Under the pieces are notes generated by a model. The model was not told the DNA's origin. It ran no database searches and saw only the letters and a program-made list of their open reading frames with translations. From a virus, in the IMG/VR virus record IMGVR_UViG_3300050190_000059, positions 1 to 64,000 of that record: 64,000 nucleotides of DNA; one strand, written 5' to 3'. The translations under genes and the position numbers were made by a program. This document shows positions 152 to 61,786 of the stretch, piece by piece. Position 1 is the first letter of the stretch. Every line of letters begins with the position of its first letter.

Positions 152-206
152 TTATGCCCGAATGCGGCTCACGCGTTTCACGAGGATGAGCCGATAACTT
201 TTGTGC

Positions 207-236: not shown

Positions 237-254
237 CTGATTGTGAAGATTAGC

Positions 255-21334: not shown

Positions 21335-22425
21335 GTACTCGCTTCAACGTATGTGACCTCAATGCTATAGAAACGCGGGTAGGTGCTTGGTTAGCAAATT
21401 GTACAGACCTTATGAGCGTGTTCGTGCCGTACACCGACGTGTTTGGTGTTTACCAGCGCAACGGTCGCGACCCGTACCTCGCGTTCGCGTGTAAGATGTT
21501 TGGTCTGACGTACGATGTCCTTTACGCCGACTATAAGGGTAGAAACGGCAAAGAGCGCAAGGCTGCCGCGAAGCGTATGCGACAAGTCGCGAAGCCGGGA
21601 GTGCTGGGAGCCATCTACCGTCTCGCTGGCGGCATACTTATACGCATCCACACAGATGAGTGCAAGCTGGCGCAATCGAAGGGAGAGATAAAGGCCGACG
21701 AATGCGGCTGCCCCAAGGGTAAGACGGGTCTCTGGGACTACGCGGATAAGATGGGCGTCGAGATGTCCCAGAAACAATCGCACGAGGTGGTGGACATCTT
21801 CCGCAACTCGTACCCAGAAATATGTGACCCGAAGGTTGGAATTTGGAAGCAGTTGGAACTCGCGGTCGCCGACGTGATGCACCCGAACCACCCGGCCACG
21901 GTTCGTTATATCGGCCCGGGCAACTGTGTGAAGATCGACCGCATCAACTTCATTGACCCAGTGACGGGTGAGCAAGAGCGTCACCCAATGATGAGGATGC
22001 AATTACCGAGTGGCCGTTACCTGCACTATTTAGACGCGCGTCTCGAATCAACGATGATGCCGTGGAAGGGACAAGACGACGATGGAAACGAAATTGACGT
22101 TTACCGTGACAGCCTCATTTACGCCGGAACAAATCAGAAGACTAAGCAGTGGGATATCTGGATTTCCACCCACGGCGGGAAACTCTTTGAAAATCTCGTC
22201 CAAGGAATCGCAAGAGATATTCTGGCCTACTGTCTTCTCCAATTTGAAGAGCAAGAAATGCCCGTGGTGGGCCACGTTCACGACGAGGGCCTTACGTTGG
22301 TTGAAGACGATATTCTCTCGCCTACGTACCACGACATGGTCGAGATAATGAGTACGCCCATTAACTGGGCACCGGGTCTGTTGCTGGGCGCGGATGGATA
22401 TGAGGAGACGTACTACCACAAATGA
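21331..22425 (+). CDS. family A DNA polymerase, C-terminal fragment (motifs A, B, C)
   Basis: CDLNAIETRVGAWLA (motif A), RQVAKPGVLGAIYRLAGG (motif B), VGHVHDEGL (motif C). Confidence 0.8.
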   Translation: MSTRFNVCDLNAIETRVGAWLANCTDLMSVFVPYTDVFGVYQRNGRDPYLAFACKMFGLTYDVLYADYKGRNGKERKAAAKRMRQVAKPGVLGAIYRLAGGILIRIHTDECKLAQSKGEIKADECGCPKGKTGLWDYADKMGVEMSQKQSHEVVDIFRNSYPEICDPKVGIWKQLELAVADVMHPNHPATVRYIGPGNCVKIDRINFIDPVTGEQERHPMMRMQLPSGRYLHYLDARLESTMMPWKGQDDDGNEIDVYRDSLIYAGTNQKTKQWDIWISTHGGKLFENLVQGIARDILAYCLLQFEEQEMPVVGHVHDEGLTLVEDDILSPTYHDMVEIMSTPINWAPGLLLGADGYEETYYHK

Positions 22426-29512: not shown

Positions 29513-30072
29513 CCGACGAACTCACACCAGACCCGTTCGTAACCACGCCGGAGTTACAAGCTGCAATTGACGCGGCCTTGGCTGCGGTTCTAAACCGTCC
29601 GTACGCTGCGCGCAACCCGCAGTTAGGCAAGATGATTAACTGTCAAGTGTGCCGATCACGCCACCGCAAGAACGAAAAGCAGTGCGAGCAGGTCTTCACA
29701 CACCGGGTAGATCACGACAACTACGAGTTACTACGAGAGAACGACAATGGTGAACTCGTACCGGACTACCGCACCTGTACGAAGGAAGGCGAGCGTCCGA
29801 CGATGAAACAGCTTATGGGCGCGTCGGCATTCAACAAGAAACGTTTCCACCCGCACCCATCGAAAATCAAACTGCTACTTATCGAGTATACCCGCGAGGC
29901 CTTTACTGCTCTCGGTTTCCCTCTCGATAACAAGGCAGCGGATTTTGAAAAGAACCTGCAACGCGCCCGTGTCGTGGCCGCCCGTCGTATCCGCAAGGAA
30001 CGCCGACTGCGTACCCGTGCGACGAACCGTCAAAGAGACAAGGCAAAACGCATCAACAAGGGGCTGCTATGA
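29509..30072 (+). CDS. hypothetical protein with basic C-terminus
   Basis: 187-aa ORF, ATGA coupling. Confidence 0.65.
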   Translation: MTDELTPDPFVTTPELQAAIDAALAAVLNRPYAARNPQLGKMINCQVCRSRHRKNEKQCEQVFTHRVDHDNYELLRENDNGELVPDYRTCTKEGERPTMKQLMGASAFNKKRFHPHPSKIKLLLIEYTREAFTALGFPLDNKAADFEKNLQRARVVAARRIRKERRLRTRATNRQRDKAKRINKGLL

Positions 30073-30326
30073 GCAGAGAGTTGAGAAAGACCGTGGAGAA
30101 AATCATTCTGACCGACTGGCCGAAGATGAAGTACATGGAGGCCAACTATCGCGGCATGGAGACGGATGATTTGTTAAAATACCGTAGCCGTATATATCAT
30201 TTGATGATGATGGACGACAGTGAAACCGCAGGCGGCTGGGTTGTGAACATCAACATCGAGGGTATCGTCGATGAACTCAAATTTCGAAAAGCCCTTCCAA
30301 AGAATGATGGATGGGGCGATGCTTGA
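30069..30326 (+). CDS. hypothetical protein
   Basis: 85-aa ORF, ATGA coupling. Confidence 0.6.
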   Translation: MSRELRKTVEKIILTDWPKMKYMEANYRGMETDDLLKYRSRIYHLMMMDDSETAGGWVVNINIEGIVDELKFRKALPKNDGWGDA

Positions 30327-31086
30327 AAATATCACCATCCTAATCCCGACCTTCCACCGACGCGGTTACCTCTGCGACTGTTTGATGGGAATCGCCGAGA
30401 ATCTACCCGAGTGTTCGGTGTTGGTTGCCTCGGATGACGGCCTTCCTCCAGAGCGCGCTTGGCTCACAGATGGCATCCTCAGAGATAGCTGGTTCACGAT
30501 GTCTTATGATGTAGGCTTGACCGCGAAGCGGAATCTATTAGTACAAGGGACACTGACGCGGTACGCGCTGATGGGGTCGGACGACTTCGACTTCTCCACA
30601 CCAGAGGCGCGCGAAGGTATCATTAGGATGGCTCAACTATTCAAGGCTTCAGATTTAACTTTTATGGAGGTTGACGTCGCGTGCGGACGGGTCAACAACC
30701 GACCGTACGAGGGTCATCTTGAGTACGTTCCCGGCCAATATATTAAAGAGCACCGTATCGGGCCACGGCAGGCCGCGAGGGTAACCGGAATCGACATCGC
30801 GGCAAATTACTTTCTCGCCCGCGCTGACTTCCTTAGAAAGTTCCCTTGGGACGAGACCATCCGGCCTATCGGTGGGGAGCACGCGGACTGGTTCTTAGAC
30901 TTGAAGGCGGCGGGCAGAAAGGTCGTGTTCGTCCCCGGCGTGAACATCAACGAACTTCCGAAGGACCGCAGTAAAGAGCATCCCGACTACCGCACGTTCC
31001 GCAATCGATGCTGGGAAGGCCACGCGATCTTCATGAAAAAGCGCGGCATCAAGAAGTATTACGGATTCGATGAAGACGTACAATAG
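30319..31086 (+). CDS. glycosyltransferase, GT-A fold (GT2-like)
   Basis: ITILIPTFHRRGYL...VLVASDDG...LMGSDDFDF. The start is uncertain (30304-30319). Confidence 0.65.
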   Translation: MLENITILIPTFHRRGYLCDCLMGIAENLPECSVLVASDDGLPPERAWLTDGILRDSWFTMSYDVGLTAKRNLLVQGTLTRYALMGSDDFDFSTPEAREGIIRMAQLFKASDLTFMEVDVACGRVNNRPYEGHLEYVPGQYIKEHRIGPRQAARVTGIDIAANYFLARADFLRKFPWDETIRPIGGEHADWFLDLKAAGRKVVFVPGVNINELPKDRSKEHPDYRTFRNRCWEGHAIFMKKRGIKKYYGFDEDVQ

Positions 31087-31096
31087 GAGAACTAAA

Positions 31097-31291
31097 ATGG
31101 CAAAACAAAAGGTAGCAAAGGCAATTCAAATTGGTTCGGTGGTTCAGTTCAAGAGTGGCGGGCCGCTCATGACCGTAGTCAAAGGCGTATCAGGGGGCGA
31201 CAGCACCATTCTAACGGTGTTGTGGATAGCAGAAGAACGCTATCTTCAAAAGGCCGAAGTCGCCATCCAAGCGTTCAAACTGATACGCTAA
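31097..31291 (+). CDS. YodC/DUF2158-like small protein
   Basis: VVQFKSGGPLMTVV...LWIAEERYLQKAEVAIQAFKL. TAGGAGAA RBS. Confidence 0.6.
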   Translation: MAKQKVAKAIQIGSVVQFKSGGPLMTVVKGVSGGDSTILTVLWIAEERYLQKAEVAIQAFKLIR

Positions 31292-32244
31292 TGGACCTGA
31301 TAATCTACCACGGAAATTGTCCCGACGGCTGGGCCGCAGCGTACATCTGCAAGCTGAAGTACCCGGAGGCCGAGTTCATGCCCCTCAATCATGGTCTGAC
31401 AGACGAGGCATTGGAAGACCTATTTGCGATGGTCGACAATAAACACGTCATCATGGTCGACTATTCGCTGCGCACTCGCGAGTTGAACGACAAGTTAGCC
31501 GCACTCGCGAACACGTTCCGTATTCTCGACCATCACAAGACAGCGCAGGCCGTGTTGGAGGGCGCACCGTACGCGATCTTCGATATGAAACGCTCAGGCG
31601 CTGGCATGGCGTGGGATTATCTGTTCGGCAAGGACGCGTATTTGGAGGGCGACGGATACTTAGAACGACCATTCTGGATTTCGTACACCGAGGACCAAGA
31701 TTTGTGGAACTGGGTGTTGCCGCACTCCCAAGAGATCAACGCCTATTTGATGGTGCAACCGCGCACCGTTGAAGTGTGGGATAAAATAATTGAGATGAGT
31801 GCCGCTGATGCTGAGAAAAGAGGTAAAGGCGTCCGCTCGTACATCGAATACTACACCCGCTCCGTCCTCGCAGAGGTACAAGAGGGCGTTCTATTTTTCC
31901 AGACGGGCACAATCGAGTCAGAGGACGAGACCATCACCCTTCCCGTTTATACCAGTTACCGCACCGGGGTCCTCAACATCCCGTACGTGGGAGTCAGCGA
32001 GGCTGGCGCGGCATTAGTCGAGAGTGGATTCGACATCGGCCTCGCGTGGTTCGAGCGCGGCGACGGTCTGATTCAGTTCTCTTTGCGTAGCAAAAAGGGC
32101 GGCCCAATCGACGTCGCCGCAATCGCAAAGACCTACGGCGGCGGCGGCCACAACAACGCGGCAGGTTTTCAAGTTAGTCTCAGAGAGGGTCGCGACATCG
32201 TCGACGGCATCATAGGGAGACTCAGTTATGAAAAATCGAATTGA
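31291..32244 (+). CDS. DHH/DHHA1-family phosphoesterase
   Basis: IIYHGNCPDGWAAAY, RILDHHKT (DHH), GGGGHNNAAGF (DHHA1 GGGH). Confidence 0.8.
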   Translation: MDLIIYHGNCPDGWAAAYICKLKYPEAEFMPLNHGLTDEALEDLFAMVDNKHVIMVDYSLRTRELNDKLAALANTFRILDHHKTAQAVLEGAPYAIFDMKRSGAGMAWDYLFGKDAYLEGDGYLERPFWISYTEDQDLWNWVLPHSQEINAYLMVQPRTVEVWDKIIEMSAADAEKRGKGVRSYIEYYTRSVLAEVQEGVLFFQTGTIESEDETITLPVYTSYRTGVLNIPYVGVSEAGAALVESGFDIGLAWFERGDGLIQFSLRSKKGGPIDVAAIAKTYGGGGHNNAAGFQVSLREGRDIVDGIIGRLSYEKSN

Positions 32245-32572
32245 CATCATAGAGTTCCCTGTCTTCTCCGACTTCATCGTCCACGTTGAAGTGACAAAGA
32301 ACTTACAAAAGACTACGATGAAGTATCCAAGTGTCGCGTGTTCGGCGGACGAGATCGATAACAACACAGACGCGGTCACGTTGTACGCTAACGGAAAGGT
32401 CTGTTTCATATTCTTACAACCCGATGCTTCTGCTGGAACAGTGGCCCACGAGGCCTTTCACGCCGTCGAGAATATGATGAGCTATTTCGATATGGACTTG
32501 GGCGGGGAGACTTCGGCGTATCACATCGGGTATATAGTGAACCGTGCATTCAAATTGTTGAGGAAACGATGA
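32228..32572 (+). CDS. small HExxH metallopeptidase-like protein
   Basis: GTVAHEAFHAVENMM. 114 aa. Confidence 0.5.
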   Translation: MKNRIDIIEFPVFSDFIVHVEVTKNLQKTTMKYPSVACSADEIDNNTDAVTLYANGKVCFIFLQPDASAGTVAHEAFHAVENMMSYFDMDLGGETSAYHIGYIVNRAFKLLRKR

Positions 32573-33267
32573 CACTACTTATCGCAGTTAAGAGTTGCCG
32601 TGCAGACCTAGATCGCGGGTGTCATGACGTGATTCGCTCGACGTGGGGGCTAGCCTTGCGCGGTAAGGCGATGGTGCGTTTCTTCGTCGGCCACACGGCC
32701 AGCGACTACTTCATGGCCCACCCAAAGGCCGACGCGAGAACATTCTCAAACGACGAGGTTGTGGTGGACGCACCCGACGATTATCAGTCACTGCCACATA
32801 AGACTCGCGCCATCTGCGGCTGGGCGATCACTAAGAACGTCAGCCACGTGTTCCTCTGCGACAACGACACTTATGTGAACGCGGCGAAGCTACTCTCTTG
32901 CGGGTACGAGGGCTACGACTACGTAGGCAAGATCGACAAGCCGTTGGGAGAAACCTTCCCTTACGACGCGGTTGACCGCAATGGAATAATGGAGCACATC
33001 CCCTTCTGTTACCCGTGGGCCAGCGGCGGCTTCGGCTACTTCCTGTCTCGCAACGCGGCCTTCGAGGTGGCAGACAGCTATCCGAAGACGTGGGCAGAGG
33101 ATTTGTGGGTTGGTCAAGTTCTGGGACGAGAGATCGCAAAGAAAGAAATGTCGGCACTCAGTCTCCCGGCACGTAGTTACTCTGAGCACTTTCCGTCCGC
33201 ACAATTCAAACAGGGATACGACCCGAAACTGAAGTGGATGGAAAAGATGCACGCGGAGAACAAGTGA
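32569..33267 (+). CDS. GT31/Fringe-like glycosyltransferase (beta-1,3-Gal/GlcNAc-transferase family)
   Basis: LLIAVKSCRADLDRGCHDVIRSTWG, DDYQSLPHKTRAICGWA, FLCDNDTYVN (DxD), ASGGFGYFLSRNAA, EDLWVGQVLG. Confidence 0.65.
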   Translation: MTLLIAVKSCRADLDRGCHDVIRSTWGLALRGKAMVRFFVGHTASDYFMAHPKADARTFSNDEVVVDAPDDYQSLPHKTRAICGWAITKNVSHVFLCDNDTYVNAAKLLSCGYEGYDYVGKIDKPLGETFPYDAVDRNGIMEHIPFCYPWASGGFGYFLSRNAAFEVADSYPKTWAEDLWVGQVLGREIAKKEMSALSLPARSYSEHFPSAQFKQGYDPKLKWMEKMHAENK

Positions 33268-33956
33268 AGACCGCGCTCTTAGTCATTGCAACTGGGGAGA
33301 AGTACCACAAGTATATTCAGCCGCTGCTCCAATCGGCCAGAACCTATTTCGTCCCCCACACCCCGGTCGTCTTCTCCGACGCCAACAATATCGGCTTGGG
33401 AGAACGTCCTTACATGGTGATCGACCACGAGGCGTGGCCCGGTCCCACGCTACACCGATATCATACGTTTTTGAAGGCGAAAGAATATCTGGGATGTTTC
33501 GACCAGCTATTTTATATCGACGTCGACATGCTGTTCGTCGCACCAGTTGGGGACGAGATATTCTCCCACGGTCTTACTGCCGTGCTCCATCCCGGCTACG
33601 TCGGCATGAACAGCACTTCCGGTACTCCCGAAAGACGGAGAGAGTCCGCCGCGTTCACCCCACATAATACGGCCTATTATTGCGGAGGCTTTCAAGGTGG
33701 GGATACAGAAACATATTTGAGGGCGATGGAGTATATGGCTGCTGGAATTAAACTTGATGAGACGCGAGGAATAACTGCGGTGTGGCACGATGAGTCTCAC
33801 TGGAACGCCTTCTTGTCGACTATCGAAAGACCGACAAAGGTTTTTGGACCAGATTATTGTTACCCCGATGTACCCGGCGACTACTACCGCAATAAATGGC
33901 GCGCGGCGGGGCTGACGGTCACCCCAAAGATTTTGGCACTCACGAAAGAATCATGA
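33264..33956 (+). CDS. GT6-family glycosyltransferase (ABO / alpha-1,3-Gal(NAc)-transferase-like)
   Basis: LLVIATGEKYHKY...VVFSD, YIDVDMLFVAPVGDEI (DVD), LHPGYVG, ERRRESAAF, YYCGGFQGG, AVWHDESHWNAF. These are collinear with the vertebrate GTA/GTB motifs VDVDMEF, HPGFYG, YYLGGFFGG and AVWHDESHLNKY. Confidence 0.85.
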   Translation: MKTALLVIATGEKYHKYIQPLLQSARTYFVPHTPVVFSDANNIGLGERPYMVIDHEAWPGPTLHRYHTFLKAKEYLGCFDQLFYIDVDMLFVAPVGDEIFSHGLTAVLHPGYVGMNSTSGTPERRRESAAFTPHNTAYYCGGFQGGDTETYLRAMEYMAAGIKLDETRGITAVWHDESHWNAFLSTIERPTKVFGPDYCYPDVPGDYYRNKWRAAGLTVTPKILALTKES

Positions 33957-34681
33957 TTACCATTAAACTGATGGGAGGATTAGGAAATCAACTTTTCCAG
34001 CGGGCCTTCGGGCTGGCGTTAGAGGGCCGAGGTTACACAGTTCGATACGACTTGTTCGCGTTGAAAGAGGGCACTCACCGCGAGTACTCGCTTGGATACT
34101 TCAGCGACCTGCCAATCAGCCGTCAAGAGGGGCCGATTGTCAAGGAGGAGGGCGCGGGTTTTAACGCGGCCTATCTCAATCCGCCCGACACGTGCACCAT
34201 GACCGGGTATTGGCAATCGGAGAAATACTTCCTCCCGGTTGCGTACGAGGTTAACGAGGCATTCAGGTTTCGAGGGCCGCGTCCGCTACTGCCCGACTGT
34301 ATAGCGGTTCACGTGCGCCGGGGGGACTATGTCGATTTGCAACAGTTTCACGGCATGCCTGACATTAAGTATTATACAGAGGGCGTTGAGCACATCCGTC
34401 GCCGCGTGGGGGAACCTCTTAAGGTTTTAGTGCTATCGGATGACCGCCAGTGGTGTAGGGAAAATCTCCCCTCTGATTTCACAGTCGTAGAGGGTGCGAA
34501 CAAGTACGAGGACATGAAGATCATAGCTGCGTGCGGGTTCGCGGTGATCGCCAACAGCAGCTTCAGTTGGTGGGGCGCGTGGCTGGGAAGACAGCGGATA
34601 ATAGTTGCACCGAAGCAGTGGTTCACAGAGCCGTCAATGGATTCTAAGGATATCGTACCGGAGCGATGGAGAACACTATGA
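33953..34681 (+). CDS. GT11-family alpha-1,2-fucosyltransferase
   Basis: LMGGLGNQLFQRAFGLAL, HVRRGDYVD, VLSDDRQWC, NSSFSWWGAWL (the four GT11 motifs). Confidence 0.85.
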   Translation: MITIKLMGGLGNQLFQRAFGLALEGRGYTVRYDLFALKEGTHREYSLGYFSDLPISRQEGPIVKEEGAGFNAAYLNPPDTCTMTGYWQSEKYFLPVAYEVNEAFRFRGPRPLLPDCIAVHVRRGDYVDLQQFHGMPDIKYYTEGVEHIRRRVGEPLKVLVLSDDRQWCRENLPSDFTVVEGANKYEDMKIIAACGFAVIANSSFSWWGAWLGRQRIIVAPKQWFTEPSMDSKDIVPERWRTL

Positions 34682-35091
34682 GAGTATACTTAGGCGGCAC
34701 CTTTGACATCATTCATCCCGGCCACATCAAGCTGTTCCGATGGGCGAAATTTACCTTCGGTGAGGTGATAGTCGCGCTCAACACCGACGAGTTTATCCTG
34801 CGGTATAAGGGCAAGGCCCCGGCGATGACCTTCGAGCAGCGTGCGGACGTTCTCAGAGAGCTTCGTTCGGTGGACCGCGTTGTCACGAACACGGGCGACG
34901 AGGACTCAAGGCCATCGATTATCGAAGCCCGCCCGCAAGTCATCGCGGTAGGCTCCGACTGGACGAGAGATCGCATTTTGAAGCAACTGAATATCACTGA
35001 GGGATTCTTACTGCAATACAGCATCAACCTTGTGATCTACGGCAACTCTGACCCGATACACTCATCAGACATCAAGAAGAGAATGGCATGA
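34678..35091 (+). CDS. cytidylyltransferase-fold nucleotidyltransferase (TagD-like glycerol-3-phosphate cytidylyltransferase)
   Basis: GGTFDIIHPGHIKLF, NTDEF, RELRSVDRV, VGSDW, SSDIKKR. Collinear with TagD. Confidence 0.75.
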   Translation: MRVYLGGTFDIIHPGHIKLFRWAKFTFGEVIVALNTDEFILRYKGKAPAMTFEQRADVLRELRSVDRVVTNTGDEDSRPSIIEARPQVIAVGSDWTRDRILKQLNITEGFLLQYSINLVIYGNSDPIHSSDIKKRMA

Positions 35092-35726
35092 TAATCGAGG
35101 CGTTCATTCCGGATTGGGCAAGCCCCCGGGCGCACGCGGGGGCGTTGGCCGAGGCACTTGAGCCTTTTTGCAAGACGACTATCTTGAGTTCCTTCGACGT
35201 GCCTTTTTCAGTTCAGTGGGAGGAAGCAGTTTCTAAGTTCACTGGCGACATATTTTTGTGGGCGATGGCGGACATCGGATTTCGGGACCCTGTTGAAGAC
35301 ATCTTTGTTTCAATGTACCGCGCCTACTCGCGCGGCGACGTCGCTATGTACGCCCCCAACTTGGACTACACCGCGATGGTGTATGATACGAGCAAGTTAC
35401 GGCAGGTCGATCTTGGGCTGTTCGAAGTCGCGGGAACGGATTTAATCTTTGTTAGCCTGCACCGGGACCTGTTGGAATTGCTGCCCCCGCTGGGCTGCAA
35501 TACCCATGCGTGGGCCTATGATTATCTGATGACGCACATCGCGCACAGCAAACTCGGCAAGAAGGTCGTACGCGACTACAATTTCATGATCGCTCACCCG
35601 TACGGGAAAGCGTATAGTGAACCAGAAGCTATAGCGCAGCAAAACGAGTGGATACACCATCTGTCTTTTGTACACCAGATGGGCATCCGAGAACAGCAAG
35701 CGATTCAAGAAAGAACCCATGCTTAA
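35088..35726 (+). CDS. hypothetical protein in the glycosylation island
   Basis: 212-aa ORF, ATGA coupling. No diagnostic motif. Confidence 0.65.
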   Translation: MIIEAFIPDWASPRAHAGALAEALEPFCKTTILSSFDVPFSVQWEEAVSKFTGDIFLWAMADIGFRDPVEDIFVSMYRAYSRGDVAMYAPNLDYTAMVYDTSKLRQVDLGLFEVAGTDLIFVSLHRDLLELLPPLGCNTHAWAYDYLMTHIAHSKLGKKVVRDYNFMIAHPYGKAYSEPEAIAQQNEWIHHLSFVHQMGIREQQAIQERTHA

Positions 35727-36501
35727 GTTATTCACTTTCGTGAGCACGAACCCCGCGCTGCTCGAACTTCAGTACAACAGCTTTCTGCGACACATGAGGG
35801 AGCCGTTCGAGTTCGTCGTTATAAACAACGGCGCGCTCACGGACCACGACAAGTACATTGAGATTGCCAAAGAGTGCATGCGCCTCCACCTTCGGTTCAT
35901 AAGTGTGATGTACGACCCTATCCTCGCAGACCGACTGCGCAATTTAGGCGGCCACCGAGTGCTCGTCGGTAATATGTATGCTAACATGACTGCGGCCTGC
36001 GGATACGGGGTCGCGTGGGCGTGGGAGAACGTGATCTCGAAACAGCGCGGCACCGTCTGTCTGATGCACCACGACATGCTGATGGTGCGCGACGCCGTTC
36101 TGTCAGATCAGATGGAGGATGCTGACTTGGTATTTGTCCCGCAATCCCGTGAGGGCGTGCCCGTGCACTTGTGGGAGGGGTTCGTTCTCGCCAACATCGA
36201 CCGCATACCTGTGATGGACGCAGCGTGTTGGTGGTACGGTGAGATCGGTGATGTCAATGTGGACGTCGGAGGGATGTCACACTACTGGTTTCAAGCGCAC
36301 CCGCACCTGCGTTGGAAGGGAATTCCTACAGTCTCAGTCGAGGATACGCCCGACGTGAGTTTTCACCCAGCGGTATTTGAGCATCTGTATCTCGATGGCG
36401 AACCAACAATTCTACACTACCGCGCGGCATCCGACTGGATGAAGCTGGGGCCAGAGTACCACGAAAAGAAGATGCTGTGGCTAAGGGAGCAACTGCGATG
36501 A
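35719..36501 (+). CDS. hypothetical protein, possibly a GT-A-like glycosyltransferase
   Basis: FTFVSTNPALLELQYNSFLRHM..FEFVVINNG resembles a GT-A N-terminus (weak). Confidence 0.6.
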   Translation: MLKLFTFVSTNPALLELQYNSFLRHMREPFEFVVINNGALTDHDKYIEIAKECMRLHLRFISVMYDPILADRLRNLGGHRVLVGNMYANMTAACGYGVAWAWENVISKQRGTVCLMHHDMLMVRDAVLSDQMEDADLVFVPQSREGVPVHLWEGFVLANIDRIPVMDAACWWYGEIGDVNVDVGGMSHYWFQAHPHLRWKGIPTVSVEDTPDVSFHPAVFEHLYLDGEPTILHYRAASDWMKLGPEYHEKKMLWLREQLR

Positions 36502-37358
36502 TCGCAGGAAAAGTAAACATAGTTATCCCGCTCTACAATCAAGAGCAGTACATCACTCAGTGTGTCAATTCAGCCCTCGCTCAAACGTATCCGAATTTCG
36601 ACGTGACCATCGTTAATGATGGTTCAACCGACTATTCGAGACAGGTGTTACAGGAAGCGATTGACGCTTATTTGAACGTAGACAGCGTCAAGAGGGATGA
36701 ATTTTATAAGATAGTAGAAGAGAAAGGTCTAGAGACCAAGCGAACCAGCGATGGCATGTTTCCGGACCACGAAGAAAAATGGGCCTTGTGGGCGAGTTAT
36801 TTTCCGAACGGTGAGCGCGTCGCACCTCTCGTGATCGACCAACCGAATAAAGGTCTTTCCGAGTCCCGGAATATCGGGATTAGAAGCGGGGACGGGGAGT
36901 TTATTTTACCGCTTGACAGCGACGACTGGATTGATGTAGACTATCTAAGTAGGACCGTGCCCAAGATGGCGGACCCGAAGGTGGGCATCGTCTCCACCGA
37001 TATGCAGTACGAGGGGCTGTTGCGCAACCGCATCGCACCGCGCGGTCTAACGTTAGCGCATCAGATGAACTGCAATGACCTTCCAATCTGCTCGCTGATT
37101 AGACGAGAGGCGTGGGAGCAAACCCCCGGGTACGAGACCATCTTCGTTGACGTGGCAGGCAGCACGAAGGTTCTCGGTTATGAGGACTGGAATATGTGGA
37201 TTGATATTTTGAAGCGCGGCTGGACCGTGGCGGTCGTCAACGAGCCGCTGTTCCACTACCGCGTGAAACCAGTTTCGATGATAACGCAGGCGAAATCGAA
37301 GCACAACGGACTGGTGCGCGTGATTCATCTTCTGCATCCGGATTTGTGGAGACAATAG
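36498..37358 (+). CDS. GT2-family glycosyltransferase
   Basis: VNIVIPLYNQEQYITQCVNSALAQTYPNFDVTIVNDGSTD, LPLDSDDW (DxD). Confidence 0.85.
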   Translation: MIAGKVNIVIPLYNQEQYITQCVNSALAQTYPNFDVTIVNDGSTDYSRQVLQEAIDAYLNVDSVKRDEFYKIVEEKGLETKRTSDGMFPDHEEKWALWASYFPNGERVAPLVIDQPNKGLSESRNIGIRSGDGEFILPLDSDDWIDVDYLSRTVPKMADPKVGIVSTDMQYEGLLRNRIAPRGLTLAHQMNCNDLPICSLIRREAWEQTPGYETIFVDVAGSTKVLGYEDWNMWIDILKRGWTVAVVNEPLFHYRVKPVSMITQAKSKHNGLVRVIHLLHPDLWRQ

Positions 37359-38011
37359 TGAGGATAACTTTTATCGGCGACGTGCACGGGAAGACCGACC
37401 AGTACCAGAAAAAGCTGCGCCAGAAATTCGCCGGGAAGCGCACCTTCCAGATCGGGGACATGGGCGTTGGCTTCAAAGGCACCCCGGGTCTTCATAAAGA
37501 CATCATGACCAGCGGCGACCACAAGTGGATTCGCGGGAACCACGATGACCCGGCGAAGTGCCGACAGCAGTACGGATACGCGGGCGAGTACGGCTACCTG
37601 CCGGGGGACAAGCTGTTCTTCCTCGGTGGCGCGTTCTCCATCGACCGCGCGTGGCGCACCCCCGGCGTATCGTGGTGGGGCGACGAGGAACTCAGTTGGC
37701 CGGAACTCGCGAAGGCCGTCGACTTGTACATCGCGACGAAGCCTGAGATCGTGGCAACGCACGACTGCCCCAGCCGCATCTCAGAATACATGCTGACCGT
37801 GGTGCTCCCCAGCTTCCGACCGGAGAAACTGGACTGCATGTCCAGCCGCACCGCAGCCGCGTTGCAGCAGATGCTCGACATTCATCGCCCGAAAGAGTGG
37901 GTCTTCGGTCACTACCATATTGATACCTCTTTCGAGTGGCAGGGCGTAAAATTCACTTGCATCGCTGAACTTTCGGAGTATACTATAACTGACGAGGTGG
38001 TGACGCTGTGA
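37346..38011 (+). CDS. calcineurin-like metallophosphoesterase
   Basis: FIGDVHG, QIGDMG, IRGNHDD, ATHDCP, FGHYH. GTG start (37346 or 37358). Confidence 0.8.
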   Translation: METIVRITFIGDVHGKTDQYQKKLRQKFAGKRTFQIGDMGVGFKGTPGLHKDIMTSGDHKWIRGNHDDPAKCRQQYGYAGEYGYLPGDKLFFLGGAFSIDRAWRTPGVSWWGDEELSWPELAKAVDLYIATKPEIVATHDCPSRISEYMLTVVLPSFRPEKLDCMSSRTAAALQQMLDIHRPKEWVFGHYHIDTSFEWQGVKFTCIAELSEYTITDEVVTL

Positions 38012-38187
38012 AATACGAGTACATAAGATTAGAACTTAACATGGGCGACCTGACCGCGCTCAACGGTTTGTCGTCCGTGGGTTTCCGTGTCGTGGCCGTT
38101 TTGAGCGAACCACGGTATGTCGCCGTGGACGACTTCGCGGGTATGGTGCCGATAAATTACGCCTTGCTCGAAAGGCCTATACCATGA
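38008..38187 (+). CDS. DUF4177-like small protein (59 aa)
   Basis: VKYEYIRLELNMG...LNGLSSVGFRVVAV...LLERP. GTGA and ATGA coupling at both ends. Replaces the antisense ORF 38029..38238. Confidence 0.5.
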   Translation: MKYEYIRLELNMGDLTALNGLSSVGFRVVAVLSEPRYVAVDDFAGMVPINYALLERPIP

Positions 38188-38858
38188 ACGTTTATCTGAT
38201 AGCCGACACGCATCTGAAACACGAGGCCATGAAGACATACTGTCTACGCCCGCCCAACTTCACAGAACTCATACATAAGAACGTGATGAACACAGTGAAG
38301 GCAGAAGATACGCTGATACATTTAGGCGACGTGGGCATAGGTAAACACGCGGATTGGACGTGGATGGTGCGCGCATGGCCGGGTCGTAAAATACTGATAC
38401 GTGGTAATCACGATAGGGCACACTCTTGTGGATGGTGGGCAGAAACAGGCGGCTTTGATTTCGCGTGCGACTCGATGGTCTTCCGCAACGTGCTACTCAC
38501 CCACGAGCCAGCGAACGCGATCATAAAATCTGACGGCCATCGTCCGTACGGCGCGCTGGAAGAGGGTCTGCCGCAAGACTGCGAACTGAACGTGCACGGG
38601 CACCTTCACAACATCTGGGACGGATTCGCCAGCGAAGGACGTTTGGAGCGCGACAAGGAACTGCTCGGAATAGACTTCACCAAACGACTAAAGCACTCGT
38701 GGCAGCGGCTGTTCGCCGTGGAGTACACGAACTACATGCCAGTTGAATTCAACAAGTTTATATCGCAGCCGGACAAGTATCAGGCGAGAGGACCTAAACC
38801 GAAACATTTTTCGGAACTCCGCGATCAACTGATACTTCCAGCAACAGAGGAGAAATAA
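38184..38858 (+). CDS. calcineurin-like metallophosphoesterase
   Basis: LIADTHL, HLGDVG, IRGNHDR, LTHEP, VHGHLHN. Confidence 0.8.
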   Translation: MNVYLIADTHLKHEAMKTYCLRPPNFTELIHKNVMNTVKAEDTLIHLGDVGIGKHADWTWMVRAWPGRKILIRGNHDRAHSCGWWAETGGFDFACDSMVFRNVLLTHEPANAIIKSDGHRPYGALEEGLPQDCELNVHGHLHNIWDGFASEGRLERDKELLGIDFTKRLKHSWQRLFAVEYTNYMPVEFNKFISQPDKYQARGPKPKHFSELRDQLILPATEEK

Positions 38859-42368: not shown

Positions 42369-42575
42369 ATGAACGGCATAAACGAAAAGAATCACCGCGA
42401 TAAAAAGAACGAGACCAGCGCAGAGAACTTCCGCAAGGAAAAGAGAGCGCGCAACGACGCGCGCGGCAAACAGAAGTGGGTCCCAAGTTCGTTCACGGGA
42501 ACCTTAGAAGAACTCGATAAGTTATCTGACGCAAAGGTACGGGCAATTGTCCCGGCGCACTGGGAGAGATCATGA
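42369..42575 (+). CDS. small basic protein upstream of RtcB (candidate leaderless)
   Basis: 68-aa ORF rich in K/R/N/E. The ATG lies 6 nt after the -10. ATGA-coupled to rtcB. Confidence 0.55.
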   Translation: MNGINEKNHRDKKNETSAENFRKEKRARNDARGKQKWVPSSFTGTLEELDKLSDAKVRAIVPAHWERS

Positions 42576-43903
42576 GTTTACCAAACAAGAAAATGATTCA
42601 GAAGAATTACAACGTGCTCGCGACCGTGGGCGCGCCAATCAAAATGTGGAACAAGCACGTCAAGATCGAAGACAAGGCCATCGAGCAACTACATCAGGTC
42701 GCCGCGATGCCCTTCGTGAAGCCGTGGGTTGCCGCTATGCCAGACACCCACTGGGGCATGGGCGCGACCGTTGGCTCTGTCATCCCTGCGGTGGGCGCTG
42801 TGATGCCTGCGGCGGTCGGAGTGGACATCGGGTGCGGCATGATGGCTGTGCGCACCAACTTAAAGTTTCGAGAGAAAAGTCTTCACGACCAGCGCGACCC
42901 AATGCAGTTCTACTTCGAGGAAATCTCCGCAGCGGTTCCGCACGGTCGCACTAACGACGGCGGAAACGGTGACCGTGGCGCGTGGGGTGAAGTGCCAGAA
43001 GACATTCAGAAGGCTTGGGGACGAGAGTTTACGTCGTACATTTACGGTGAGAACAGAGGTTTATTTGATAGACATCCCGGCGCGTTGTCGAAGAACGCGG
43101 AGAAGCAACTCGGCACACTCGGAACCGGAAACCACTTCATCGAGGTGTGCACCGAGATCGACAATCCCGACTCGAATCTCTGGGTCGTAATTCACTCGGG
43201 TTCACGTGGCTTCGGCAACCGCATCGGTACGTACTTCACGAAGCTAGCAGGCGACCTATGTAAGAAGTGGGGCGTTCAACTTCCGAATCGCGATCTCGGC
43301 TACCTTCCGGTAGGAACTCCTGAATACGACGACTACATGTCTGCCGTGAGGCTGGCGCAGAAGTTCGCTTGGGTCAACCGTGTGGTCATGATGAACCGCG
43401 TGTTGACTGCAATCGGCGCGGAGTCAGACACGGATTGGACACACCACACTGATGTGGAGCCGAATCTCGTCGTTCACAATCCAGTGCCGTCTTTGATTCA
43501 CGTGCACCACAACTACATGACTCAGATTCGTTTCCAGAATCTCGACATCAACCTGACCCGCAAGGGCGCGGTGGACGCGAGCGAGGGCAACTGGGTCATC
43601 ATCCCCGGCTCGATGGGCGCGAAAACGTACATCGGGAAGGGACTCGGGAACAGGGACTCGTTTTTCTCTTGCTCTCACGGCGCGGGCCGCGCGATGAGCC
43701 GAACCCAGGCTCTTAAGATTTTCTCAGTGGAAGACCACACCAAAGCAACGGATGGTGTCTACTGCGATAAAACGACCGCTGTGCTCGACGAAACCCCCGG
43801 GGCTTATAAAGATATTGACCAAGTTATGGAGAGCCAAAGGGACCTTGTTGAGCCTGTGCTCAAGATTCGGCAACTCGTTTGTGTAAAAGGTTTGAGTGAC
43901 TAA
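42572..43903 (+). CDS. rtcB: RtcB 3'-phosphate/5'-hydroxyl RNA ligase
   Basis: MPDTHWGMGATVGS, GVDIGCGM, GTGNHFIE, HSGSRGFG, HHNY, IPGSMGAKTY, CSHGAGR. Confidence 0.9.
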   Translation: MSLPNKKMIQKNYNVLATVGAPIKMWNKHVKIEDKAIEQLHQVAAMPFVKPWVAAMPDTHWGMGATVGSVIPAVGAVMPAAVGVDIGCGMMAVRTNLKFREKSLHDQRDPMQFYFEEISAAVPHGRTNDGGNGDRGAWGEVPEDIQKAWGREFTSYIYGENRGLFDRHPGALSKNAEKQLGTLGTGNHFIEVCTEIDNPDSNLWVVIHSGSRGFGNRIGTYFTKLAGDLCKKWGVQLPNRDLGYLPVGTPEYDDYMSAVRLAQKFAWVNRVVMMNRVLTAIGAESDTDWTHHTDVEPNLVVHNPVPSLIHVHHNYMTQIRFQNLDINLTRKGAVDASEGNWVIIPGSMGAKTYIGKGLGNRDSFFSCSHGAGRAMSRTQALKIFSVEDHTKATDGVYCDKTTAVLDETPGAYKDIDQVMESQRDLVEPVLKIRQLVCVKGLSD

Positions 43904-46870: not shown

Positions 46871-46876
46871 GATGCT
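46848..46876 (+). promoter_or_regulatory. promoter, extended -10, embedded in the 3' end of the HNH gene
   Basis: TTGACA (46848-46853), 17 nt, GATGCT (46871-46876), with TG at 46868-46869. Confidence 0.5.
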
Positions 46877-46896
46877 TTGGATACGGAGAAACGCAT

Positions 46897-59353: not shown

Positions 59354-59362
59354 GTTTTCCTC

Positions 59363-61774: not shown

Positions 61775-61786
61775 TTTATTAGTCCT

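What the first reader, a model, noticed from the sequence alone, without database searches (positions are those of the whole stretch)
32569..34681. Consecutive GT31, GT6 and GT11 genes: the enzyme set for an ABH histo-blood-group-like epitope
Seen: three adjacent, overlapping genes carry the hallmark motifs of three families.
- GT31/Fringe-type beta-1,3-transferases: IRSTWG, DDY..L..KT, DNDTYV, EDLWVG.
- GT6: DVD, HPGY, YYCGGFQGG, AVWHDESHWNAF. These are collinear with human GTA/GTB.
- GT11 alpha-1,2-fucosyltransferases: GGLGNQLFQ, HVRRGDY, SDD..WC, NSSFSWWGAWL.

Established:
- In vertebrates a beta-1,3-linked Gal precursor is fucosylated by GT11 (FUT1/2) to give H antigen.
- GT6 enzymes require H antigen as acceptor to make A or B antigen.
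- Bacterial mimicry with GT11 plus GT6 is known, for example in the E. coli O86 O-antigen. Bacterial GT6 enzymes such as the Bacteroides one are metal-independent NxN variants.

Inference:
- This phage encodes a self-contained precursor-to-H-to-A/B-like pathway.
- Its GT6 retains the vertebrate-type DxD (DVD).
- It has Gly at the position aligned with human residue 268 and Cys at 266 (YYCGG vs YYLGG in GTA and YYMGA in GTB). That tentatively points to a GalNAc (A-type) donor.
- A phage-carried blood-group-mimic cassette could mediate host-glycan mimicry, serotype conversion or receptor masking.
Basis: partly seen in the sequence, partly recalled or inferred. Interest (0 to 1): 0.8.

Follow-up and report, generated by a model that had tools for sequence, protein, structure and literature searches.

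The report
Phage GT31–GT6–GT11 glycan-building gene trio
An uncultivated ~100-kb phage carries three back-to-back sugar-transferase genes from the same enzyme families that build human ABO blood-group sugars; the genes are real and conserved in its relatives, but phages with two of the three were already known and what the sugar is attached to is still unknown.

Summary
Three translationally coupled genes (32569-33267, 33264-33956, 33953-34681) belong to GT31, GT6 and GT11, by Pfam above gathering cut-offs and, for GT31 and GT6, by confident AlphaFold models matching those families in the PDB. The GT6 aligns motif-for-motif with human GTA: DVD, HPG, CGGF and the catalytic WHDE.

The trio is part of a longer glycan operon (30271-37358) in a lytic-style replication-to-lysis gene array. 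Nine fetched relatives and 10 of 33 related IMG/VR contigs keep it at the same locus. Thirteen more keep GT31-GT11 without GT6, so GT6 looks like an optional last step. One relative encodes GDP-fucose synthesis (Gmd plus an Fcl-like domain) beside it. A Planctomycetota contig fuses GT2, GT31, GT6 and LicD in one protein, followed by a cytidylyltransferase and a GT11.

An A/H-like Fuc-alpha1,2-(GalNAc-alpha1,3)-Gal cap is the best chemical reading.
- the cassette is not self-contained (no primer, export or GDP-fucose genes);
- DxD is normal for the known phage/PVC GT6 clade;
- GT6 plus GT11 is already annotated in cyanophages and reported in soil phages;
- vertebrate mimicry has no support.

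The target (host envelope, virion or other) is unresolved. I rate it a new variant of a known kind, of moderate interest.

The parts
30271..31086 (+). Divergent GT2-type (GT-A) glycosyltransferase, a conserved upstream member of the module
   Evidence: The window copy has no Pfam hit. Of its 95 homologues, many carry precomputed PF00535 and JGI names them 'glycosyltransferase involved in cell wall biosynthesis'. A homologue lies within about 3.1 kb upstream of GT31 in 21 of the 22 IMG/VR contigs of this lineage, L088-L109; in L102 it lies downstream.
31222..32244 (+). DHH/DHHA1 phosphoesterase (context; conserved directly upstream of the trio in many relatives)
   Evidence: PF02272 DHHA1 at 26.1 bits (cut-off 25.9) and phrog_4771 DHH phosphoesterase at E 2e-65. 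Synteny.
32228..32572 (+). 114-aa ORF with an HExxH motif, translationally coupled to GT31 (ATGA overlap)
   Evidence: Sequence VAHEAFHAV. phrog_1365, unknown function, E 4e-9. Conserved in L003, L004, L006 and L088 but absent in L005 and L007.
32569..33267 (+). GT31-family glycosyltransferase (beta-1,3-Gal/GlcNAc-transferase fold); predicted to make the beta-linked Gal acceptor
   Evidence: PF01762 at 43.4 bits (cut-off 23). AF2 pLDDT 93.5. Foldseek top 34 PDB hits are all GT31: B3GalT6, B3GNT2, B3GalT5, CHSY3, Manic Fringe. Residues T25, W26, D98, D100, G153, G154, E177 and D178 are invariant in 41 homologues.
33264..33956 (+). GT6-family retaining alpha-1,3-GalNAc/Gal transferase of the minimal, DxD-bearing (metal-dependent-type) clade
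   Evidence: PF03414 at 94.9 bits. PDB hits to BoGT6a and GTA, with DVD, HPG, CGGF and WHDES aligned. These columns are invariant across 121 sequences. AF2 plus Foldseek give TM 0.80-0.89. phrog_3317.
33953..34681 (+). GT11-family alpha-1,2-fucosyltransferase
   Evidence: PF01531 at 91.4 bits (cut-off 23.9). phrog_2644 full-length, E 3e-44. 28-31% identity across the length of the annotated cyanophage GT11 genes. HVRRGDY motif. Gmd plus an Fcl-like domain lie next to the orthologous gene in L007.
34666..35091 (+). Cytidylyl/adenylyl-transferase-like nucleotidyltransferase (makes an NDP/CDP-activated substituent); first gene of the variable block
   Evidence: PF01467 E 7e-19. The best NCBIfam hits, rfaE domain II and glycerol-3-P cytidylyltransferase, are below their cut-offs. 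A 141-aa homologue follows the GT2-GT31-GT6-LicD fusion in L013.
35088..35726 (+). 212-aa protein of unknown function in the variable block
   Evidence: No Pfam, NCBIfam, PHROG or PADLOC hit. 39% identical to the N-terminal domain of the L007 522-aa protein whose C-terminus is Fcl-like.
35668..36501 (+). 277-aa protein of unknown function that recurs in GT6/GT11 glycan loci
   Evidence: No family hit. Homologues at 21-36% identity occur in phage relatives and in bacterial GT6/GT11 loci: L008, L041, L043, L051, L058, L070, L089, L091, L095 and L096.
36477..37358 (+). GT2-family glycosyltransferase, last sugar gene of the block
   Evidence: PF00535 E 7.5e-27 at 94.7 bits.

Best explanation
The trio is the conserved core of a phage-encoded, cytoplasmic glycan-assembly operon (30271-37358).

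Proposed chemistry:
1. The GT31-like enzyme adds a beta-1,3-linked sugar, most likely Gal, to an acceptor.
2. The GT11 enzyme adds alpha-1,2-fucose to that Gal from GDP-fucose, giving an H-type disaccharide cap.
3. The DxD-type GT6, presumably metal-dependent, adds alpha-1,3-GalNAc (less likely Gal) to the fucosylated Gal, giving an A-like trisaccharide.

The upstream GT2-like enzyme and the variable downstream genes (nucleotidyltransferase, two unknown proteins, GT2) build or decorate the rest of the glycan.

Shown: family membership, active-site conservation, operon structure, conservation in the lineage, and optional presence of GT6.

Inferred: linkages, donors and order of action.

Target: the enzymes are soluble and the window carries no export or ligation machinery. 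I think the most likely acceptor is a host lipid-linked or envelope glycan precursor. If so, infection repaints the cell surface for receptor masking or superinfection exclusion, as has long been hypothesised for cyanophage 'LPS' clusters.

My probability for the A/H-like chemistry is about 0.6. For host envelope as the target it is about 0.45.
For: - Families: Pfam, PDB and fold evidence.
- GT6 residues: H-P-G (GTA 233-235, the fucose-accommodating side of the acceptor pocket), [C/A]GGF (donor) and E303 are invariant in 121 sequences. BoGT6a AGGL and GTA LGGF are GalNAc-specific, and PaGT6 from Parachlamydia transfers GalNAc to H antigen with Mn/Mg (PMC3516806). Parachlamydiaceae GT6 genes carry AGGF.
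- Operon: 4-nt ATGA/GTGA overlaps.
- Synteny: the trio sits at the same locus in L003-L009 and L088 down to 44% GT6 identity.
- Order of action: 10 of 33 IMG/VR contigs have the trio, and 13 more have GT31 and GT11 but no GT6 within 6 kb. GT6 is therefore a dispensable terminal step.
- GDP-fucose: Gmd (481 bits, cut-off 415) and an Fcl-like domain lie beside the trio in L007.
- Rosetta stone: L013 encodes a GT2+GT31+GT6+LicD fusion, then a cytidylyltransferase and a GT11.
- GT6-GT11 linkage in bacteria: 30 of 41 loci with at least 5 kb on both flanks.
- Cellular location: no TM segment in any cluster protein and no polytopic membrane protein in the window.
- Cellular homologues sit in polysaccharide-type loci with GT1, GT2, LicD and patatin genes.
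- A prophage GT11 has been shown to make 2'-fucosyllactose (PMC12748750).
Against: - No enzyme of this lineage has been assayed.
- GT31 enzymes also transfer GlcNAc or GalNAc. B3GNT2 scores as well as the B3GalTs, so the Gal assignment is only pathway logic.
- Some GT11 enzymes use other GDP-6-deoxyhexoses.
- The acceptor-pocket position equivalent to GTA A343 cannot be aligned reliably.
- The window phage encodes no GDP-fucose or UDP-GalNAc supply, so the product depends on an unknown host.
- Nothing in the data separates a host-envelope target from a virion target.
- The gene order in the window (GT31-GT6-GT11) does not follow the reaction order, and L009 and L096 have GT31-GT11-GT6.
Confidence: 0.5

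Rival explanations
1. Virion glycosylation. The same enzymes build the glycan on phage structural proteins (capsid, tail or fibres) in the cytoplasm, as in mycobacteriophage capsid/tail glycosylation or chlorovirus and giant-virus capsid glycans. The result would be A/H-like or other variable glycan coats on the particles.
For: - All cluster proteins are soluble, and the window has no export or ligation genes.
- The module is a stable core feature of a lytic-style genome region rather than a moron.
- The downstream block is hypervariable, as expected for an exposed, selected surface.
- Fringe/GT31-like and GT-A enzymes occur in giant viruses that glycosylate their own particles.
- Papers found cite virion glycosylation in phages; I did not read the primary paper.
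Against: - The genes lie between the replication and lysis genes, not with structural genes.
- Cellular homologues and the Planctomycetota fusion sit in cell-envelope-type polysaccharide loci.
- No acceptor protein or protein-O/N-glycosyl-initiating enzyme was identified.
Confidence: 0.25
2. Same families, different product. The three enzymes do not make an ABH-type epitope. For example, GT31 could be a beta-1,3-GlcNAc/GalNAc transferase, GT11 could fucosylate or transfer another 6-deoxyhexose elsewhere, and GT6 could act on a non-fucosylated acceptor. The blood-group resemblance would then be only at the family level.
For: - B3GNT2 and chondroitin synthases match the GT31 model as well as the B3GalTs do.
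- GT6-less relatives carry several GT31 paralogues.
- Relatives encode a dTDP-glucose-4,6-dehydratase-like enzyme and a DegT-type aminotransferase, so other deoxy or amino sugars are in play.
- The NCBIfam model nearest the GT6 is named 'family 6 glucosyltransferase' (below cut-off).
Against: - The H-P-G and [C/A]GGF residues are conserved as in the H-antigen-dependent GalNAc transferases GTA and BoGT6a (PMC3516806).
- GT6 is tightly linked to GT11 in phages and bacteria.
- Gmd plus an Fcl-like domain lie next to the trio in L007.
Confidence: 0.25
3. Lysogenic conversion or mimicry of a vertebrate host's blood-group glycans. A prophage would express the cassette so that its bacterial host displays A/B antigen to an animal immune system.
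For: - An integrase-like gene is present at 46867-47769.
- GT11+GT6 mimicry is established for E. coli O86 and Bacteroides ovatus (PMC3516806).
Against: - The genes are translationally coupled inside a replication-to-lysis array, with no excess of promoter or terminator signals.
- No prophage copy was found among 185,579 species genomes. The closest cellular GT6 genes are 37-49% identical, and those record titles that name a source name cave, pond, lake, bog, groundwater and water-treatment samples.
- The two best hits in that scan are misbinned phage contigs.
Confidence: 0.05
4. DNA hypermodification. The transferases would build an oligosaccharide on a modified base of the phage DNA to evade restriction.
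For: - The cluster lies among DNA-metabolism genes and phosphoesterases.
- There are weak sub-threshold hits to a dNMP-kinase and a YfbR-like nucleotidase at 13350-14593.
Against: - No base hydroxymethylase or other hypermodification enzyme was found in 64 kb.
- To my knowledge (not tested here), GT6, GT11 and GT31 are not known DNA glycosyltransferase families.
- Cellular homologues are in polysaccharide loci.
Confidence: 0.03

Closest known systems
Cyanomyovirus 'LPS/cell-surface' gene clusters with GT11 and GT6 (Prochlorococcus phage P-SSM2 PSSM2_265/268; Synechococcus phage S-8S55 and others)
   Same: - They are phage-encoded, soluble GT11 plus minimal DxD-type GT6 in one sugar-gene cluster with epimerases and other GTs.
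- The function is likewise unproven and hypothesised to be host-surface remodelling (PMC12801897).
- They share the same PHROG families, phrog_3317 and phrog_2644.
   Different: - Only 28-32% identity.
- A different phage lineage, with no DNA match to any deposited phage.
- In this tblastn survey no GT31-like gene was seen next to the two cyanophage GT6 genes examined.
- Here the trio is translationally coupled and sits at a fixed locus across the lineage, with GT6 presence or absence varying among relatives.
Parachlamydia acanthamoebae PaGT6 and the 'clade 1' minimal DxD GT6 enzymes (PMC3516806)
   Same: - A minimal catalytic domain without the BHB membrane-binding tail.
- A DxD motif.
- A [A/C]GGF donor motif, seen in Parachlamydiaceae loci.
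- PaGT6 needs Mn/Mg and transfers GalNAc to H antigen or 2'-FL.
   Different: About 35-38% identity to the Parachlamydiaceae loci. This one is phage-borne, and its activity has not been measured.
E. coli O86 O-antigen pathway (WbnJ beta-1,3-GalT, WbnK GT11, WbnI GT6), which makes a blood-group-B-like O unit
   Same: The three-step logic is the same: beta-1,3-Gal, then alpha-1,2-Fuc, then alpha-1,3-Gal/GalNAc. Bacterial GT11 plus GT6 mimicry is cited in PMC3516806; the step assignment is from my own knowledge.
   Different: - From my own knowledge, WbnJ is not a GT31 enzyme and O86 WbnI is an NxN-type GT6.
- The O86 cluster has Wzx/Wzy and sugar-nucleotide genes.
- The phage window has no primer, flippase, polymerase or ligase.
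Planctomycetota glycan locus in MAG contig JBCCWB010000155.1 (L013)
   Same: It has GT31-like, GT6, a 141-aa cytidylyltransferase and GT11 in the same order as the window. The GT2, GT31, GT6 and LicD domains are fused in one 992-aa protein. Among cellular bins, GT31 lies next to GT6 only in Planctomycetota.
   Different: It is a cellular-type context with GT1 and patatin genes and no phage genes. GT6 identity is only 39%. It is a 10-kb MAG contig, so its taxonomic assignment is not certain.
Phage O-antigen seroconversion systems (GtrABC, Oac)
   Same: Possibly the same purpose: altering a surface glycan to block further phage adsorption.
   Different: Gtr systems are membrane proteins acting at the periplasmic face and are expressed from prophages. 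Here all proteins are soluble, no polytopic membrane protein is encoded, and the genes sit in a lytic-type operon.

Membership tests
CAZy GT6 (Pfam PF03414) | Significant full-domain match to the family profile | tested here: met
   PF03414 at 94.9 bits against a cut-off of 25, residues 14-210 on profile positions 78-286. BoGT6a E 7.5e-26 and GTA E 3.9e-23.
CAZy GT6 (Pfam PF03414) | GT-A fold superposable on GTA, GTB, alpha3GT and BoGT6a | tested here: met
   AF2 pLDDT 92.4 and pTM 0.90. Foldseek gives TM 0.86-0.89 and rmsd 2.0-2.4 A to BoGT6a, and TM 0.80-0.85 to GTA/GTB.
CAZy GT6 (Pfam PF03414) | DxD (or NxN) nucleotide-sugar/metal motif and the catalytic Glu of WHDE at homologous positions | tested here: met
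   DVD aligns with GTA D211-V-D213, and AVWHDESH aligns with GTA 298-305. D..D is 120/120 and E303 is 121/121.
CAZy GT6 (Pfam PF03414) | H-antigen-type acceptor pocket: His233/Gly235 rather than Gln/Trp, and a small residue at position 343 | tested here: inconclusive
   H-P-G is conserved. The residue-343 equivalent lies outside the reliable alignment.
CAZy GT6 (Pfam PF03414) | Retaining alpha-1,3-Gal/GalNAc transfer, and metal dependence | not testable with these tools
   Needs an enzyme assay. The CGGF donor motif suggests GalNAc by analogy with AGGL in BoGT6a and LGGF in GTA (PMC3516806).
CAZy GT11 (Pfam PF01531) alpha-1,2-fucosyltransferases | Match to the family profile above the curated cut-off | tested here: met
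   91.4 bits against 23.9, but the best stretch covers only residues 133-258. phrog_2644 matches full-length at E 3e-44. tblastn gives 28-31% identity across the length of the annotated cyanophage GT11 genes.
CAZy GT11 (Pfam PF01531) alpha-1,2-fucosyltransferases | HxRRxD GDP-fucose-binding motif | tested here: met
   HVRRGDY is present. That this motif defines the family is from my own knowledge, not from a tool.
CAZy GT11 (Pfam PF01531) alpha-1,2-fucosyltransferases | Use of GDP-L-fucose on terminal beta-Gal | not testable with these tools
   Contextual support only: Gmd (481 bits, cut-off 415) and an Fcl-like domain lie next to the orthologue in L007. No solved homologue is detectable by sequence.
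CAZy GT31 (Pfam PF01762 / Fringe PF02434) | Match to the family profile above the curated cut-off | tested here: met
   PF01762 at 43.4 bits against 23, but only residues 20-114 on profile positions 4-104 of 195. Fringe scores 15.1, below its cut-off of 21. Nearly all of the 120 listed homologues (of 380 found) carry PF01762.
CAZy GT31 (Pfam PF01762 / Fringe PF02434) | GT31 fold | tested here: met
   AF2 pLDDT 93.5. The top 34 Foldseek PDB hits are all GT31 enzymes, the best at E 9e-12 and TMq 0.67. The moderate TM reflects a smaller, minimal domain.
CAZy GT31 (Pfam PF01762 / Fringe PF02434) | Conserved beta3GT motifs: (I/V)RxTW, DxD, GG, and ED(L/V) | tested here: met
   VIRSTWG, D98-N-D100, SGGFGY and AEDLWVG are present. 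T25, W26, D98, D100, G153, G154, E177 and D178 are invariant in 41 sequences. That these are the family motifs is from my own knowledge. The central DxD reads DND or DTD rather than the animal DDD.
CAZy GT31 (Pfam PF01762 / Fringe PF02434) | Inverting beta-1,3 transfer, and the identity of the donor (Gal, GlcNAc or GalNAc) | not testable with these tools
   GalTs and GlcNAcTs match equally well.
Self-contained ABH-type O-unit pathway (E. coli O86-like) | Own priming transferase, flippase/polymerase/ligase, and GDP-Fuc/UDP-GalNAc supply | tested here: not met
   No such Pfam or NCBIfam hits in the cluster or among the other ORFs scanned. No protein in the window has more than three TM-like segments. 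Only 64 kb was seen.
Phage lysogenic-conversion (Gtr/moron-type) glycan modification | Membrane-embedded GtrA/B/C-type proteins, or an autonomous moron unit with its own promoter and terminator | tested here: not met
   All proteins are soluble. Genes have 4-nt overlaps with neighbouring genes. Promoter-like sites number 12 against 8.9+/-3.5 expected, and terminator-like sites 13 against 14.2+/-3.2. The sigma-70 consensus may not apply to the unknown host.

The most novel reading that the evidence does not exclude
This uncultivated phage lineage of roughly 50-117 kb contigs, possibly infecting Planctomycetota or other PVC bacteria, carries an ABO-like polymorphism of its own. It has a fixed GT31-GT11 'H-type' core. 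Some members extend it with GT6 ('A-type'), some with a second GT6-GT2 fusion, and all with a hypervariable decorating block. The phages would use this glycan to paint either their own particles or the infected cell in an arms race over glycan recognition. The clustered and fused GT31-GT6-GT11 module in PVC bacteria and their phages would then be the prokaryotic form of the whole vertebrate ABH pathway, not just of GT6. That would give a candidate source and vector for the horizontal transfer proposed for GT6.
Probability: 0.15. Interest if true: 0.75.

Novelty: new variant of a known kind. Interest (0 to 1): 0.45.

Why it matters
Phage GT6 and GT11 genes have been annotated since the first cyanomyovirus genomes, but nobody has shown what they glycosylate. 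This lineage offers a compact, conserved three-enzyme set that can be expressed, and natural variants with and without GT6.

That makes three questions directly testable:
- whether phage GT6 enzymes really depend on a GT11-made H-type acceptor;
- whether a minimal DxD GT6 with a CGGF motif is a GalNAc transferase;
- whether the product ends up on the cell or on the virion.

The work also adds a GT31-type enzyme, a family that is mainly eukaryotic to my knowledge. PHROGs has no family matching it, and in BFVD only one phage protein among the top hits is named Fringe-like. It extends the DxD-type GT6 clade to many PVC-group bins, which bears on the proposed prokaryote-to-vertebrate transfer of GT6. 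If the enzymes behave as predicted, they would be small soluble catalysts for synthesising type-1/3 H and A oligosaccharides.

Tried and rejected
- Megablast of 30000-38000 against 50,697 phage records found no match, so the phage itself is undescribed there.
- Sequence search of the PDB with the GT11 and the GT31-like protein found nothing. GT31 was resolved by fold search instead.
- Host identification failed. There are no tRNAs. The UvrD-like helicase and the A1-like protein give only distant hits of 24-50% to unrelated phages. The genome scan found no prophage copy. PVC or Planctomycetota is only suggested, by the closest cellular GT6 and by GT31-GT6 adjacency.
- The DNA-hypermodification idea was rejected. 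No hydroxymethylase or similar enzyme was found among the ORFs scanned.
- No cluster protein hits PADLOC, so it is not a known defence system.
- The moron or lysogenic-conversion idea got no support. Promoter and terminator signals are not in excess, though the sigma-70 consensus may not apply to this host.
- The 329-aa 'epimerase' in relatives could have been a UDP-GlcNAc 4-epimerase supplying UDP-GalNAc. Its best match is instead dTDP-glucose 4,6-dehydratase-like, below cut-off, so it gives no support for the donor call.
- The GTA A343 / alpha3GT W356 acceptor-pocket position could not be aligned reliably.
- Literature searches for GT31 with GT11 in phages returned nothing relevant.

Full report
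**1. Observation**

- Pfam places each above its curated gathering score: 32569-33267 in PF01762 Galactosyl_T (GT31; E 4e-11, 43.4 bits vs 23); 33234-33956 in PF03414 (GT6; E 5e-27, 94.9 vs 25); 33896-34681 in PF01531 (GT11; E 8e-26, 91.4 vs 23.9).
- The junction sequences are ATGA (32569), GTGA (33264) and ATGA (33953). The homologues are 226-233 aa long. The real GT6 and GT11 starts are therefore probably 33264 and 33953. The genes are translationally coupled to each other and to the ORF upstream.

**2. Family tests**

GT6:
- phmmer against the PDB gives BoGT6a at E 7.5e-26 and human GTA (1lz0) at E 3.9e-23.
- The printed alignment puts DVD on GTA DVD(211-213), LHPGY on LHPGF(232-236), YYCGGF on YYLGGF(264-269) and AVWHDESHWN on AVWHDESHLN.
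- Across the window protein plus 120 metagenomic homologues, D..D, H-P-G, [C108/A13]-G-G-F and the catalytic Glu are essentially invariant.
- An AlphaFold model (pLDDT 92.4) superposes on BoGT6a at TM 0.86-0.89 and on GTA/GTB at 0.80-0.85.
- The only acceptor-pocket residue I could not place is the GTA A343 equivalent. The alignment is unreliable beyond GTA residue 325.

GT31:
- The Pfam match covers only the N-terminal half, and the PDB sequence search found nothing. I therefore modelled the protein from 41 homologues (pLDDT 93.5).
- The 34 best Foldseek matches in the PDB are all GT31 enzymes: B3GalT6, B3GNT2, B3GalT5, chondroitin synthases and Manic Fringe. The best has E 9e-12 and TMq 0.67.
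- The motif residues T25, W26, D98, D100, G153, G154, E177 and D178 are invariant in the family alignment.
- The donor sugar cannot be told from this evidence.

GT11:
- It is supported by Pfam, a full-length match to phrog_2644 (E 3e-44), and 28-31% identity across the length of the annotated cyanophage GT11 genes.
- No solved homologue is detectable by sequence.

**3. Context in the window**

- The window is phage. It encodes a primase-helicase, a DNA polymerase split by an endonuclease ORF, a UvrD-like helicase, a T5 A1-like protein, RtcB, a GH108-type endolysin and an integrase-like gene. Large tail-like proteins with lectin and carbohydrate-binding domains lie on the minus strand.
- It matches no deposited phage at the DNA level. 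It is about 95% identical over the cluster to IMG/VR contig IMGVR_UViG_3300037091_000060, which is 100,420 bp.
- The trio is the middle of a longer sugar operon:
  - a divergent GT2-like transferase, 30271-31086;
  - a DHH phosphoesterase;
  - a 114-aa HExxH ORF;
  - GT31, GT6 and GT11;
  - a cytidylyltransferase-like enzyme;
  - two unknown proteins;
  - a GT2, 36477-37358.
- Two metallophosphoesterases and the endolysin follow.
- None of these proteins has a transmembrane segment. No protein in the 64 kb looks like a flippase, polymerase, ligase or Gtr-type enzyme.
- There is no GDP-fucose pathway and no base-hydroxymethylase in the window.
- Promoter-like and terminator-like sites are not enriched.

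**4. Relatives**

- The GT6 has 589 metagenomic homologues at E<=1e-10 and the GT31-like protein 380 at E<=1e-5.
- In contigs L003-L009 the trio sits at the same locus, after the helicase, nuclease, GT2-like and DHH genes and before the phosphoesterases and endolysin. GT6 identity there is 88% to 44%.
- Two of these contigs are deposited as an 'uncultured archaeon' MAG and are clearly misbinned phage.
- A scan of IMG/VR with the GT31 alignment found 33 viral contigs:
  - 10 carry the trio;
  - 13 more have GT31 and GT11 but no GT6 within 6 kb, often with extra GT31 paralogues, and in 12 of them GT11 follows GT31 within about 1.1 kb (L099 has a GT31 paralogue in between);
  - one short contig has GT31 and GT6 and then ends.
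- The stable core is therefore GT2-like plus GT31 plus GT11, and GT6 is an optional addition. This is what one expects if GT6 acts last on the GT11 product.
- The block downstream of the trio differs between relatives:
  - a second GT6 domain fused to GT2 (donor motif QGCF) plus an NDP-hexose 4,6-dehydratase-like enzyme in several;
  - Gmd (481 bits, above the equivalog cut-off), an Fcl-like domain, a DegT-type aminotransferase and more GTs in L007;
  - the nucleotidyltransferase, two unknowns and GT2 set in the window and L088.
- GDP-fucose genes beside the trio in L007 are the best contextual evidence that the GT11 really fucosylates.

**5. Cellular relatives**

- A scan of one genome per species (185,579 species) found no prophage copy.
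- Setting aside the two misbinned phage contigs, the closest GT6 genes (46% down to about 36% identity) come mainly from Planctomycetota, Verrucomicrobiota and Chlamydiota bins. They are DxD-type. NxN types appear mainly in CPR (Patescibacteria), Neisseriaceae and Burkholderiales bins, plus a few others.
- GT11 lies within 6 kb of GT6 in 30 of 41 loci that have enough flank.
- A GT31-like gene next to GT6 occurs only in four Planctomycetota contigs.
- In one of them (L013) a single 992-aa protein carries GT2, GT31-like, GT6 and LicD domains. It is followed by a 141-aa cytidylyltransferase and a GT11, which is the window's gene order.
- That fusion is independent evidence that the GT31-like and GT6 activities serve one pathway. 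It also hints that the window's nucleotidyltransferase feeds a phospho-substituent decoration.

**6. Mechanism**

- Best reading of the chemistry: GT31 adds a beta-1,3 sugar (Gal by pathway logic). GT11 adds alpha-1,2-Fuc. GT6 adds alpha-1,3-GalNAc. The product is an A-like cap on an H-like core.
- The GalNAc call rests on the invariant small-Gly-Gly motif. BoGT6a AGGL, GTA LGG and an alpha3GT HAAI-to-AGGL mutant all favour GalNAc, and PaGT6 transfers GalNAc to H antigen in a metal-dependent way (PMC3516806). Parachlamydiaceae GT6 genes carry AGGF.
- All of this is inference from homology. I put the chemistry at about 0.6.
- The target is open.
  - The enzymes are soluble, the cellular homologues sit in envelope-polysaccharide-type loci, and the phage lacks export genes. 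I therefore favour hijacking of host lipid-linked or envelope glycan assembly during infection, for receptor masking or superinfection exclusion (about 0.45).
  - Glycosylation of virion proteins is a serious rival (about 0.25).
  - A prophage-borne mimic of vertebrate antigens and a DNA modification are unlikely.

**7. Comparison with what is known**

- Phage GT6 has been known since the P-SSM2 genome. The 'clade 1' minimal DxD GT6 (P-SSM2, marine metagenome sequences, PaGT6) is described in PMC3516806.
- P-SSM2 carries GT11 and GT6 in one cluster, and in S-8S55 they are adjacent.
- PHROGs has families for both.
- A 2025 soil-virome paper lists GT6 and GT11 as phage auxiliary genes (PMC12016548). 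A 2025 paper showed that a prophage GT11 makes 2'-fucosyllactose (PMC12748750).
- What I did not find described:
  - the GT31 partner, which no PHROG family matches and for which only one phage protein among the top BFVD hits is named Fringe-like;
  - the fixed, coupled trio in a new phage lineage;
  - variation in GT6 presence among relatives;
  - the Planctomycetota fusion.

**8. Verdict**

The feature is real and its families are correctly identified. The pathway reading is plausible but untested. I rate it a new variant of a known kind, namely phage sugar clusters with GT6 and GT11. Interest is moderate at 0.45. It offers a clean experimental system and an evolutionary lead, but not a new principle.

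Noticed in passing
window 19671-22425: The DNA polymerase is split into two ORFs (19671-20915 and 21331-22425, both phrog_17). An Endonuclease_7-family ORF (20912-21334) lies between them and overlaps both by 4 nt. It looks like a homing-endonuclease insertion that splits an essential gene.
   Followed up: partly
window 201-599, 2420-2941, 6970-7425, 17069-17686; L088:6711-7139: There are many free-standing homing-endonuclease-like ORFs (GIY-YIG, Endonuclease VII, HNH). The 95%-identical relative L088 has a 142-aa HNH-like ORF inserted exactly between GT31 and GT6. The window lacks it.
   Followed up: partly
window 32228-32572: A 114-aa ORF with an HExxH motif (VAHEAFHAV), matching phrog_1365 of unknown function. 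It is translationally coupled to GT31 and conserved in part of the lineage but missing in L005 and L007. It could be a mini-metalloprotease; its role is unknown.
   Followed up: partly
L004:12412-14535 (also L003, L005, L006, L090): Relatives carry a second GT6 domain fused to a GT2 domain (about 692-707 aa). Its donor motif (YYQGCF) differs, and it has WFDES instead of WHDES. This suggests a second, different alpha-1,3 transfer. The window phage lacks this gene.
   Followed up: partly
L013:2020-4998 (JBCCWB010000155.1, Planctomycetota MAG): A 992-aa protein fusing GT2, GT31-like, GT6 and LicD domains, followed by a 141-aa cytidylyltransferase and a GT11. It is a Rosetta-stone fusion with the same order as the phage genes.
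   Followed up: yes
L008 and L009 (CABMCB010000059.1, CABMCB010000010.1): Two contigs of 99.9 and 57.7 kb deposited as 'uncultured archaeon isolate LFW-28' carry the helicase, nuclease, DHH (L009), GT31, GT6 and GT11 genes of this phage lineage. They are almost certainly misbinned phage.
   Followed up: partly
window 35088-35726; L007:11789-13357: The 212-aa protein of unknown function is 39% identical to the N-terminal domain of a 522-aa protein in L007. That protein's C-terminal domain is GDP-fucose-synthase-like, which hints at a sugar-nucleotide-related role.
   Followed up: no
window 50213-63995 (minus strand): A block of large proteins (324, 863, 1857, 803, 205 and 387 aa). Only the 1857-aa protein hits PHROG families, and those are of unknown function. 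Pfam finds Laminin_G_3/ConA-like lectin, PASTA, GH43-like, CarboxypepD_reg and DUF7178 domains. These are probably tail or receptor-binding proteins that recognise glycans.
   Followed up: partly
window 46867-47769, 45815-46255, 42572-43903: A tyrosine-integrase-like gene, a SprT-like protein and an RtcB RNA ligase sit in a phage that also has its own replication machinery. Whether the phage is temperate is unclear. No prophage copy was found in the genome collection.
   Followed up: partly
phage records LR756502.1 (642 kb) and LR745206.1 (635 kb): Among deposited phage records, the closest GT6 homologues (38% and 36% identity) are in two unannotated metagenomic phage records of more than 600 kb, not in cyanophages.
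   Followed up: no
window 37346-38011 and 38184-38858, with DHH at 31222-32244: Three phosphoesterases (two metallophosphoesterases and one DHH) flank the sugar genes in most relatives examined (absent from the fetched part of L005). Their conserved position suggests a link to the glycan module, for example removing nucleotide by-products. Nothing was tested.
   Followed up: no
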